A stretch of 64,000 nt of DNA from Callorhinchus milii (taxonomy: Eukaryota): contig NW_024704742.1 in the NCBI RefSeq assembly GCF_018977255.1, forward strand, positions 95,172,001 through 95,236,000, in the 5' to 3' direction. Position 1 is the first letter of the stretch, and each line of letters begins with the position of its first letter. Below, piece by piece: positions 25,201 to 28,200 of this stretch. Under the pieces are notes generated by a model, which was given only the letters and a program-made list of their open reading frames with translations, did not search any database and was not told the origin of the DNA. The translations under genes and the position numbers were made by a program.

Positions 25201-28200
25201 TGTTTTTTCTAAAAATGCAGTTATGAAGTGCGTCCAATGTTGTATAGAGTCTTCAGAAGTCTGTACAGAGGATACATAGAGTGATGAGCATAGATTTATA
25301 ATTCAATTAAAATTTACTCCTTTTCCCCCCTCTTCCCTTTCCTTGTTTTTTTGGCCATTTATCTCCGTTGCCCTTGTACTGGATCGACACGTTCCCTGCG
25401 TTGCCCATCATGACGTTGACCCATCTGCCCCTTGAACACCCATCTGAATACCCTGGTTGGCTATGCCCATAATGTGCTCAAATGCCAAATGGGCACCAAT
25501 ACTTGAACTTCACTGAATGCCCTTGCCCAATGCCAACATCCACGAACGCCTTTGTGACCAATGCAGTACAATGCCAGTGTATCAGTCCCAGACAGCAGTG
25601 GCCCCGAGCGGTATGTCCCAAAAGTTTATGACTCACTGCCTGATTAGAAAGAGGAAATGTATCTATAACCTGAATTTATTTAGTATTAATTAGTAGCCCC
25701 TTTTAGCAAGTATACTGTTTTTCAAAGTTATTTTCTGTCTATTTTCCCCATTAAGTCTTTTGTGGCTGGACTTTTATTATGTGAGTTGCCTACCCAGAGC
25801 AATCACTAATTCATTTTAATGGAAGGAGCACAGCTTCAAGTGTTGCATATTTGCTGCATTGTTAATCATAATTTGTTAATCTCTCTTGCACTATCCTTGT
25901 GGCCCACCTTGCTCCCCACATTTGCCTATTCATAGTCTTATAAGCTAACTTTGTCACCCTCCACTTTTATTTGTTCTGTCTTTCATTGTTTTGTCTTGTG
26001 TTTCTATTTGGTTTCTTGCAGGGCCCTTAGTACTGTTTCCACAAACTAGTTTCTTAACTTTTCTCCAAATTTCTGTCAAACACCTTTTTTAATGCTGTTC
26101 TCCATGATACTTACATTCCTCTTCTGCTTTGCCTATGAGAAGGTGTGCCAAAATTGCTAATATAATACCAGGGGTTTCTCAAATTGGTGGTGGGGAAGAA
26201 AGAATTTTCACTTTCTGCTCTCAGCTATACGTCGTTTTTTTTTCTTGCCCACTTAATCTGAGCCCTTCCAGTTACCCATTCTTTCTTCCAGAGCTGTCAT
26301 AATTTTCTAATGTTAAATAATTAGTTAAATTTTGCATGTTTTAGTAAATTTATTTATTAATGGGGGTTTTAAATTTGTAAAACTTATGCTGTTTATATTC
26401 CTGTTTGCGTTGTATTCACAATTCTGTGAATGGCTTGCTCACTTTGTTTTTCTCCTTTCTCGTTTGTTAATCATCAATGGTTAAAATATTTGGCAGCATA
26501 TTGAGTATCAATGCAGATATCGAAACAATTGGCGATATCCTTTCGAAGATCATCCCTACGTTGGAAGAAGTAAGATGTGTTCATTTTCATCACCTACAAG
26601 AATCTGTTAGTTGATTTTTTTTTCAAAGTTATTCAGCATTGAAGCTAAGCCACATGATCCTGCTATCATAATCCACATAATGAATTATGCTATCTTTATT
26701 ATGTGAATTCTCACAAAATGATATCTGATTCTTCTGGGTGTACTTTTAGTGCAGGTCCATAGTAGACCTGTAAGCGAGGGGGTGCTGAATCTTCCGGTCA
26801 ATATCTGCCTCTAGGCATGAAATTTGTGAACCAAAAGTGGGTCACGTGGCTTTGCATATATTGCAACTTTCCATTATAATTCTGCCAGAATTTGTTGCGA
26901 TGTATGTTCACCTGTTCACCGTGACACTTTTTCTTTTTAATGCTATGTAGTACCAGCACTATAAAGGAAAGGATTTTGATTGTGAATTAAGGATGCTGGT
27001 TCATCAGAGCCAGGCAGGAAGTATAATTGGTGTCAAGGGAGTGAAGATTAAAGAGCTCAGAGAGGTAAGTTTATATATTTGGAGCAAAGTTCAGTGGTTT
27101 CGACAACTGGTAGGTGCAACCCCAATATTTGCTTTTTTGATGGAACTAGATGTGGAATTTTCCTTTTGTAACTAACCAGATTTACCCTTTTTTTTAGCAA
27201 GACCAGAAACACGACTCCAAAATGCTCTTATTCTGAACATTGTTCAGAAATATATTAAATACCTTTAGGCATTGAACCTGCTAAAGTGACCCAATTTAAT
27301 TGATGTGATTTTGTCATCGTTATGGGGACTGCTTTGAGTTATTCTTTTAGTGCAAAACATCTAAAACGGAGGAATACATTTTTGTTCTTCATCAGTTATT
27401 TTCTAGAAATACATTTCTAGTTTTTGCATTATAAACTCAAAATTTCATCTTTCAGAGCACACAGACGACGATTAAACTCTTCCAGGAGTGTTGCCCTCAT
27501 TCAACTGATCGAGTTGTTTTGCTCGGAGGAAAGCCTGATCGAGTGGTTGAGTGCATCAAGATTATCATGGGGCTGTTATCCGAGGTGGGTGTCATTTTAA
27601 TCTTTTTCAGTGTTTGCGCCTTAATTGACATTCATCCTGGCCAGGGCTGCTTCTCTTCGATGGCCTCTGTTGAAACTGCATCTAAATTTCTATCTTGTCT
27701 ATTAGAACAAATGCATCTTAGGCGTAGAGTTTAGCTGATAAATCAAACTCCAGTCTTTGTGGTCTCAGAAATGAGAAAGTGATGTTTTGAATGTTACCCT
27801 AAGATTCGATTGAAGCATGATTTGAAATTACTAATTATCTCAGAGAGAAGAATGTGAAGGTATTCAACGTTAAATGTTTATTTGCAGTCTCCTGTCAAAG
27901 GCCGGGCACAGCCTTATGACCCGAATTTCTACGATGAAACCTACGATTATGGTGGCTTTACAATGATGTTTGATGAGAGAGGTAGGCGTGGAATGCCCTT
28001 TGGACCTCGCGGTAGAGGTGGCCCCCATCCTCCATCGCCTGGGTATGAGCGTAGAGGTCCTATGGGACCTCCAAGGGGACCGGTTGGTCGCCCTATTCCC
28101 CCACCCAGAAGAGATGCTTACGATGACATGAGTCCTCCACCTCGTAGGGGACCACCACCGCCTTTGTCTCGTTCAAGAAATGCCAGAGGTGGTCGTATTC

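What the first reader, a model, noticed from the sequence alone, without database searches (positions are those of the whole stretch)
25294..25566. 271-nt AG-exclusion zone with a distant pyrimidine tract and a UGCC/CCCA array before HNRNPK coding exon 4
Seen: there is no AG dinucleotide from 25294 to 25564. The only strong polypyrimidine tract lies about 215-250 nt upstream of the acceptor (25317-25352), just after branch-point-like A's (about 25301-25316). The spacer holds about 8 UGCC and several CCCA motifs and differs in composition from the AT-rich intron. Known: long AG-free zones mark distant-branch-point exons that are typically regulated; KH domains of hnRNP K bind C-rich RNA; YGCY is the MBNL motif. 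From memory, human HNRNPK has ultraconserved intronic sequence, but I cannot confirm it is this segment. Inference: an ancient autoregulatory switch, because skipping this 44-nt exon would frameshift and trigger NMD.
Basis: partly seen in the sequence, partly recalled or inferred. Interest (0 to 1): 0.7.

Follow-up and report, generated by a model that had tools for sequence, protein, structure and literature searches.

The report
Ancient distant-branch acceptor in HNRNPK
A 271-base stretch without the dinucleotide AG lies in front of a small frame-shifting exon of this fish's HNRNPK gene; it matches a far-upstream splicing branch site already mapped in the human gene, and whether hnRNP K uses it to control its own level is still untested.

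Summary
Observation confirmed. There is no AG in 25294-25564 (8.7 expected; 4 of 200,000 shuffles; longest gap on the + strand), and a 35/36 pyrimidine tract sits at -250..-215. The gene is the HNRNPK orthologue (KH3 exon identical to PDB hnRNP K; mir-7 in the last intron). The 44-nt exon corresponds to human c.214-257.

The human counterpart is already in published tables. Taggart 2017 lists 13 lariat positions at -230..-270, none at -10..-60, and 12 of 13 are not adenosine. Mironov 2023 lists the exon as an NMD-coupled 'essential exon' (median skipping 1.6%, anticorrelated with expression). Au-Kline variants lie at -6, -35 and -77; the window reproduces the reported fs*19 of the -6 variant.

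So the distant-branch, AG-exclusion and skip-to-NMD readings are supported through the human orthologue. Branching at adenosines is doubtful, and YGCY (MBNL) motifs are not enriched beyond composition. hnRNP K autoregulation is unshown: the spacer is modestly enriched in GCCC(A), and I found no paper that shows feedback. No RNA of this species was examined. The scan noted similar AG-free zones in other genes, none in HNRNPK. This is a new member of a known kind, with one open, testable question.

The parts
25294..25564 (+). AG-exclusion zone, 271 nt, last part of the 1243-nt intron 24324-25566
25296..25324 (+). Predicted branch region: A at 25301 (-266) is the only scored candidate followed by a strong tract; human lariats map at -230..-251 (non-A) and -270 (A, one read), i.e. 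at and inside the tract
   Evidence: home-made matrix; human data; 8/10 match to the human branch context at 25315-25324, weak
25317..25352 (+). Distant polypyrimidine tract, 35 of 36 pyrimidines, C-rich 5' half, U-rich 3' end (-250..-215)
25353..25564 (+). 212-nt C-rich spacer (GC 51%), 6 GCCC, 3 GCCCA, 8 UGCC; candidate platform for poly(C)-binding KH proteins
   Evidence: binding is inferred
25464..25495 (+). Local hairpin predicted in all five folding contexts (pair probability 0.88-0.95); not significantly more stable than shuffles
   Evidence: (15 of 200 shuffles as stable)
25565..25566 (+). 3' splice-site AG, first AG after the tract; no adjacent strong pyrimidine tract (10 of 20 pyrimidines at -23..-4)
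25567..25610 (+). 44-nt frame-shifting essential exon (4th coding exon, within KH1; counterpart of human c.214-257, hg19 chr9:86590377-86590420)
24267..24323 (+). Upstream 57-nt coding exon (donor of the branching intron)
26497..26569 (+). Downstream 73-nt coding exon, joined on skipping; has its own 150-nt AG-free zone (26345-26494)
22195..31204 (+). HNRNPK orthologue, 13 coding exons, 418-aa open frame (end of first coding exon uncertain by 24 nt)
30031..30119 (+). mir-7 precursor in the last intron (orthology marker)
   Evidence: RF00053 84.5 bits

Best explanation
This is the conserved distant-branch-point 3' splice site of the 44-nt HNRNPK exon. Shown in the window: a single strong pyrimidine tract at -250..-215, no AG between it and the exon, and an exon whose loss shifts the frame. 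Shown in the human orthologue (published tables): lariats form at -230..-270 and not in the usual zone; the skipped isoform is NMD-annotated and anticorrelates with gene expression; new AGs in the zone cause disease. Inferred: U2AF/U2 assemble on the distant tract, step 1 occurs at or inside its 5' part (possibly at non-A bases), and the acceptor is found by scanning to the first AG, which is why AG is purged from 271 nt. The long branch-to-AG distance slows step 2 and leaves a C-rich spacer where proteins can tip a small share of transcripts into skipping and NMD, trimming HNRNPK dose. The same is inferred for this fish. Regulator not known; my split: hnRNP K itself 0.3, PCBP paralogues 0.2, PTBP/PUF60/U2AF-type tract binders 0.2, MBNL 0.1, no dedicated regulator 0.2.
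For: AG depletion far beyond chance. Tract position. Orthology: KH3 exon 56/56 identical to PDB hnRNP K, ROKNT and KH_1, mir-7, neighbours RMI1, Q_salvage and kinesin. Taggart 2017 (PMC5378181) Table S5: for this acceptor region 14 positions, 1 at the acceptor itself, 13 at -230..-270, 0 at -10..-60; 12 of 13 not A. Table S1: -241 U with 24 reads, -244 C with 11 reads. HNRNPK distal-branch primers exist for human, mouse, rat and zebrafish; the text says all 8 tested sites hold in rodents and 5 of 8 in zebrafish. Mironov 2023 (PMC10123112) supplement: annotated essential exon, significant, z -15.2 and -18.5, median skipping 0.016. Au-Kline variants c.214-35A>G and c.214-77G>A and c.214-6A>G with an out-of-frame NMD transcript p.Tyr72fs*19; the window has A at -7 and -6, and a 5-nt acceptor shift gives the stop at new residue 19.
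Against: No branch point and no skipping were observed in this species. No intronic alignment to another species was made, so sequence conservation rests on positions, not letters; the 8/10 branch-context match occurs at 3 of 1234 intron positions and is low-complexity. Seven other branch-like A's score above my threshold inside the spacer. Mercer 2015 files gave no chr9 hit for this region (two files cut). Non-A lariat reads may be over-sampled or slipped (recalled caveat). Taggart found distal sites had only modest effects in three other genes that also have a proximal site. Steady-state skipping in human is low, and none of the 28 of 30 tissue rows seen is flagged as an effect. That the Taggart primers target this intron is inferred; Fig. 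4B was not visible.
Confidence: 0.82

Rival explanations
1. Narrower version of the best explanation: hnRNP K itself binds the GCCC(A)-rich spacer and the C-rich tract and promotes skipping, forming a negative feedback loop like PTBP1 exon 11.
For: GCCCA is a reported in vitro hnRNP K motif (PMC11269977, passage) and UCCCC an eCLIP motif (10.1101/179648, passage). Spacer: TGCCC 6 vs 1.7 (p=0.001), CCC[A/U] 10 vs 5.7 (p=0.004), GCCC 6 vs 2.6 (p=0.015), GCCCA 3 vs 0.7 (p=0.026), out of 12 motifs tested after seeing the sequence. 3 of the gene's 9 GCCCA lie in these 212 nt. Same layout as PTB exon 11. Human skipping anticorrelates with expression.
Against: No paper showing it was found. Bampton 2021 calls autoregulation undetermined. 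hnRNP K is not among 11 literature autoregulators and has the fewest edges (2) in the K562 eCLIP network of Desai et al.. The listing shows 0 mentions of HNRNPK in Pervouchine 2019's autoregulation screen (listing only). PCBPs bind the same motifs and overlap in eCLIP. TCCC occurs once in the spacer.
Confidence: 0.3
2. Cross-regulation: PCBP1/2, or tract binders such as PTBP1, PUF60 or U2AF, or MBNL, set inclusion; hnRNP K is not the sensor.
For: The tract is 42% C; PCBP binding to C-rich tracts enhances inclusion of CDK2 exon 5 (PMC5829739, start of abstract only). PUF60-activated exons have longer AG-free zones and more distant branch points (PMC6093180, passages). 10 YGCY in the spacer versus 2.6 per 212 nt window-wide.
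Against: The PUF60 paper reports an effect on the last HNRNPK exon, not this one, in the passages seen. YGCY is not enriched once spacer composition is kept (p=0.14). No knock-down data for this exon were seen.
Confidence: 0.4
3. The distant branch is a kinetic or structural device for constitutive splicing (delaying this intron, ordering splicing of the 44- and 73-nt exons); skipping is leakage, not regulation.
For: Median human skipping 1.6% with a quartile spread of 2.4 points. Distal-branch introns splice late. The next exon also has a 150-nt AG-free zone and 44+73 is in frame.
Against: Significant anticorrelation with expression; NMD hides the true skipping flux (established knowledge); a costly 271-nt mutational target kept from this fish to human is hard to explain without regulation (inference).
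Confidence: 0.2
4. RNA structure folds the spacer to bring tract and AG together or to hide the AG (8-bp pairing of 25396-25403 with 25559-25566).
For: Pair probability 0.65-0.76 when the intron end is folded alone; hairpin 25464-25495 is predicted in all five contexts.
Against: Spacer folding z = +0.84, 158 of 200 shuffles fold as well. The acceptor pairing falls to 0.24-0.28 when the exon is included. Best local hairpin matched by 15 of 200 shuffles. No covariation data.
Confidence: 0.12
5. Chance or repeat-derived AG depletion with a conventional proximal branch point.
For: Gooding et al. note that some long zones come from repeats; A's with branch-like context exist at -55, -51 and -10.
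Against: 4 of 200,000 shuffles; 0 of 60 simulations; GA not depleted; weak proximal tract; human lariats distal only.
Confidence: 0.04

Closest known systems
Human HNRNPK intron 5 / 44-nt exon c.214-257 (Taggart 2017 PMC5378181: supplementary Tables S1, S5, S11 rows and sections 6-7 read; Mironov 2023 PMC10123112: supplement rows and passages; Choufani 2022 PMC9606382 and PMC13494470: passages)
   Same: Orthologous gene and exon (44 nt, same frame); tract in the window at -250..-215 coincides with human lariats at -230..-251; A at -266 versus human A at -270; flanking introns 1243 and 886 nt versus 1489 and 872 nt; -6 variant consequence reproduced.
   Different: Here only predicted from DNA: no lariat, skipping or variant data for this species. 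Letter-level conservation of the intron not tested.
Distant-branch-point exons with AG-exclusion zones (Gooding 2006, PMC1431707, passages and supplement search): PTB exon 11, nPTB, GABBR1 exon 23, alpha-tropomyosin exon 3
   Same: Zone over 150 nt, tract at its 5' end, first AG used, vulnerable to AG-gain mutations.
   Different: No strong YUNAY consensus at the 5' end; human orthologue branches mostly at non-A bases. HNRNPK was not found in the held part of Gooding's list (file cut).
PTBP1 exon 11 autoregulatory essential exon (passages)
   Same: Small frame-shifting exon of an hnRNP gene, distant branch, skipping leads to NMD.
   Different: Self-binding and feedback are proven for PTBP1 and not shown for hnRNP K; steady-state skipping here is about 1.6% in human.
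Ultraconserved elements uc.263/uc.264
   Same: Recalled as lying over this exon and its upstream intron in human; uc.263 is 207 nt, chr9, exon-overlapping and adjacent to uc.264.
   Different: Assignment to HNRNPK and to this segment is recalled, not confirmed by any search.

Membership tests
HNRNPK orthologue | ROKNT and KH domains with hnRNP K sequence, mir-7 host, neighbours RMI1 and QNG1 | tested here: met
   the human gene order is recalled
Distant-branch-point / AGEZ exon | AG-free zone of at least 150 nt before the acceptor, not explained by composition | tested here: met
   271 nt
Distant-branch-point / AGEZ exon | Strong pyrimidine tract at the 5' end of the zone and none next to the AG | tested here: met
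   35/36 at -250..-215; 10/20 at -23..-4
Distant-branch-point / AGEZ exon | Good branch consensus just upstream of the tract | tested here: inconclusive
   A at -266 scores only moderately on a home-made matrix; human sites mostly non-A
Distant-branch-point / AGEZ exon | Mapped distal lariat | not testable with these tools
   Not testable for this species; published for the human orthologue
Essential exon with AS-NMD | Skipping shifts the frame and puts a stop more than 55 nt before the last junction | tested here: met
   Stop after 96 aa, 888 nt before the last junction
Essential exon with AS-NMD | Skipped transcripts exist in this species | not tested
   No reads of this species were examined; human event annotated
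Autoregulatory splicing switch (PTBP1 type) | Motifs of the gene's own protein enriched at the exon | tested here: inconclusive
   GCCC(A) modestly enriched, post hoc, shared with PCBPs
Autoregulatory splicing switch (PTBP1 type) | [quoted passage not shown] | not testable with these tools
   No report found
MBNL-regulated exon | YGCY cluster beyond local composition | tested here: not met
   10 vs 7.7, p=0.14
Ultraconserved element | Near-identity with the human segment over 200 nt or more | not tested
   No orthologous intron sequence was available from a tool; coordinates of uc.263/264 not found

The most novel reading that the evidence does not exclude
hnRNP K has controlled its own level since the jawed-vertebrate ancestor through a switch unlike the PTBP1 model: a weak, largely non-adenosine branch inside a distant pyrimidine tract holds the intron as a slow lariat intermediate, and hnRNP K loaded on the GCCCA-rich spacer blocks scanning to the AG, diverting transcripts to skipping and NMD. 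The same 270-nt zone would explain the deep intronic Au-Kline variants and offer an antisense target for raising HNRNPK dose.
Probability: 0.25. Interest if true: 0.62.

Novelty: new member of a known kind. Interest (0 to 1): 0.33.

Why it matters
The class of element is known, and the human site is mapped, though in supplementary tables rather than in a dedicated study that my searches found. The window suggests that the layout predates the split of cartilaginous and bony fishes (species taken from unchecked scan notes). It joins three facts that I found in separate papers: distal, mostly non-A lariats; an NMD-coupled essential exon; and disease variants at -6, -35 and -77. That tells clinical readers to treat the last 270 nt of this intron as splice-critical, and it points to one exact segment for testing whether hnRNP K, a dosage-sensitive gene, regulates itself, which a 2021 paper lists as open.

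Tried and rejected
Own-genome search for paralogues: no genome held. Sequencing runs: 18 listed, no RNA holder listed on record as RNA; no reads were laid on the region, so skipping and conservation in related species remain untested. Rfam: nothing in the zone. Stable spacer structure: rejected as unsupported. MBNL array and CCCA enrichment: not beyond composition. Gooding 2006 supplement: no HNRNPK by name or exon-start motif, main file cut. Mercer 2015 supplement: no chr9 hit for the region, two files cut, one table too large. Six Taggart forward primers: no convincing match in the intron, best 15 of 24 and 14 of 20, no better than elsewhere in the window. Ultraconserved-element coordinates: not found. 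Two recalled papers (Pervouchine 2012; Ni 2007) are not held under the ids tried, so they may describe this element unseen. PMC9895063 and PMC9664736 passages added little. Scan look-up of relatives returned nothing. Supplements of bioRxiv preprints and all figures were not visible; Taggart Fig. 4B/4D bears directly on zebrafish conservation.

Full report
1. Observation. The zone 25294-25564 holds no AG and is the longest such gap on the + strand. Its base composition predicts 8.7 AGs, the reverse dinucleotide GA occurs 10 times, and 4 of 200,000 shuffles lack AG; 0 of 60 simulated 64-kb sequences reach this length (maximum 179). Of 12 coding acceptors, 10 have 20-60 AG-free bases, this one 271 and the next 150. 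The tract 25317-25352 is 35 of 36 pyrimidines; the spacer's longest pyrimidine run is 6. UGCC x8 and CCCA x5 are correct. With dinucleotide content kept, UGCC is modestly enriched (p=0.013), CCCA (p=0.15) and YGCY (p=0.14) are not; the strongest of 12 motifs tried were TGCCC (p=0.001) and CCC[A/U] (p=0.004).

2. The gene. Thirteen exons give a 418-aa open frame. The KH3 exon is 56 of 56 identical to hnRNP K in the PDB, single exons hit ROKNT and KH_1, mir-7 lies in the last intron, and the neighbours are RMI1, a queuosine-salvage gene and a kinesin, as around human HNRNPK (gene order recalled). Unchecked notes on this genome call it elephant shark; I did not test that. The 44-nt exon is the fourth coding exon. 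Skipping it gives a stop after 96 residues, 888 nt before the last junction, which fits the usual NMD rule (established knowledge).

3. The human counterpart. Variant numbering in Choufani 2022 (passages) places an exon at c.214-257, i.e. 44 nt, and Mironov 2023 gives it as hg19 chr9:86590377-86590420 (supplement rows); flanking introns are 1489 and 872 nt against 1243 and 886 here. Taggart 2017 Table S5 lists 14 lariat positions in this region: one at the acceptor, 13 between -230 and -270, none at -10..-60. Twelve of the 13 are not A; the A at -270 has one read. The two S1 rows seen are -241 U (24 reads) and -244 C (11 reads). These positions coincide with the window's tract (-250..-215); its best upstream A is at -266. 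HNRNPK distal-branch primers are listed for human, mouse, rat and zebrafish. The text says all eight tested sites hold in rodents and five in zebrafish; the figure with the per-gene result was not visible, and that the primers target this intron is my inference. The human branch context matches the window 8 of 10 at -252, but such a match occurs at 3 of 1234 intron positions and is low-complexity, so it is weak.

Mironov 2023 classes the exon as an annotated essential exon whose skipping gives a downstream stop. It is among 579 'significant' events of 2802 (z -15.2 and -18.5; median skipping 0.016; quartile spread 0.024); cerebellum is highest (+0.017), and none of the 28 of 30 tissue rows seen is flagged as an effect. 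Au-Kline variants fall in the zone: c.214-35A>G and c.214-77G>A and c.214-6A>G, which gives an out-of-frame NMD transcript p.Tyr72fs*19. The window has A at -7 and -6, and moving the acceptor 5 nt upstream gives a stop at new residue 19. This check mainly confirms exon sequence and acceptor context. For -77 the window has GG at -76/-75, one base off; reading it as an AG gain is my inference. Gooding 2006 predicted such vulnerability across the whole zone.

4. Mechanism. Most likely (0.82) this is a conserved distant-branch acceptor: U2AF and U2 engage the distant tract, branching occurs at or in its 5' part, and the first AG downstream is chosen by scanning, which purges AG from 271 nt. The slow second step and the C-rich spacer give room for regulation, and skipping feeds NMD. 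Shown here: layout and frame. Shown in human: lariats, NMD isoform, disease variants. Inferred: that all this holds in this fish, and that the skipping is regulated.

The regulator is open. For hnRNP K: GCCCA is its reported in vitro motif, three of the gene's nine GCCCA lie in the spacer, and the layout mirrors PTB exon 11. Against: no report; Bampton 2021 calls it undetermined; it is absent from a list of 11 autoregulators and has 2 edges in a K562 eCLIP network; PCBPs share motifs and eCLIP sites. I put hnRNP K at 0.3, other factors together at about 0.4-0.5, and no dedicated regulator at 0.2. Structure is not supported: z = +0.84, the acceptor pairing drops from 0.76 to 0.24-0.28 with the exon included, and the best hairpin is matched by 15 of 200 shuffles.

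5. Comparison and novelty. It works like the distant-branch exons of Gooding 2006 and meets their sequence criteria; a lariat could not be tested for this species. It meets the frame criterion of an essential NMD exon. It cannot be filed as an autoregulatory switch, an MBNL target or an ultraconserved element on present evidence: uc.263 is a 207-nt exon-overlapping element on chr9 adjacent to uc.264, but its link to this segment is recalled only. Earlier scan notes describe the same class in other genes, including PTB and muscleblind, and none in HNRNPK. No paper devoted to this element was found in ten searches; subscription papers, preprint supplements and figures were not visible, and two recalled papers were not held.

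6. Limits and verdict. No reads of this species and no orthologous intron sequence were examined, so expression, skipping and letter-level conservation are open. Verdict: real feature, orthologue of a mapped human element, new member of a known kind; interest 0.33, rising to about 0.6 if hnRNP K feedback through this zone is shown.

Noticed in passing
window 26345-26494: The next coding exon (73 nt) also has a 150-nt AG-free zone (73 of 50,000 shuffles; T-rich). 44+73 nt is in frame: skipping both gives a 378-aa product lacking part of KH1, skipping either gives an early stop.
   Followed up: partly
window 25945-26142: Textbook acceptor inside the downstream intron: branch-like A at 25948, 54 of 69 pyrimidines, AG at 26020-26021, possible weak donor after 26142. 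A 121-nt exon here would stop the frame after 9 codons: candidate poison exon, untested.
   Followed up: partly
window 25826-26106: Longest GA-free stretch of the window (280 nt), pyrimidine-rich, in the same 886-nt intron, whose length is close to the human 872 nt.
   Followed up: no
window 26570-26950: The model joins the 73-nt and 114-nt exons directly in frame; the 72-nt segment that human hnRNP K has between them (recalled) was not recognised here.
   Followed up: no
window 22243 and 22267: Two in-phase donors are possible for the first coding exon (49 or 73 nt); the downstream one looks closer to consensus.
   Followed up: no
window 29055-29070: 16-nt micro-exon-like coding exon needed to keep the frame, behind a strong pyrimidine tract.
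   Followed up: no
window 30031-30119: mir-7 precursor in the last HNRNPK intron.
   Followed up: yes
window 15021-16952 (-), 37788-38375 (+), 51396-54156 (+): RMI1 (divergent from HNRNPK), a queuosine-salvage gene and a kinesin gene flank the locus.
   Followed up: yes
window 4009, 14219, 34418, 46358, 50741, 61729: Six low-scoring tRNA-like matches with similar tails, probably heads of tRNA-derived SINEs.
   Followed up: no
window 35150-35610 and 46780-47980: Two long simple tandem arrays (CAG-rich and G-rich) that distort local dinucleotide counts.
   Followed up: no
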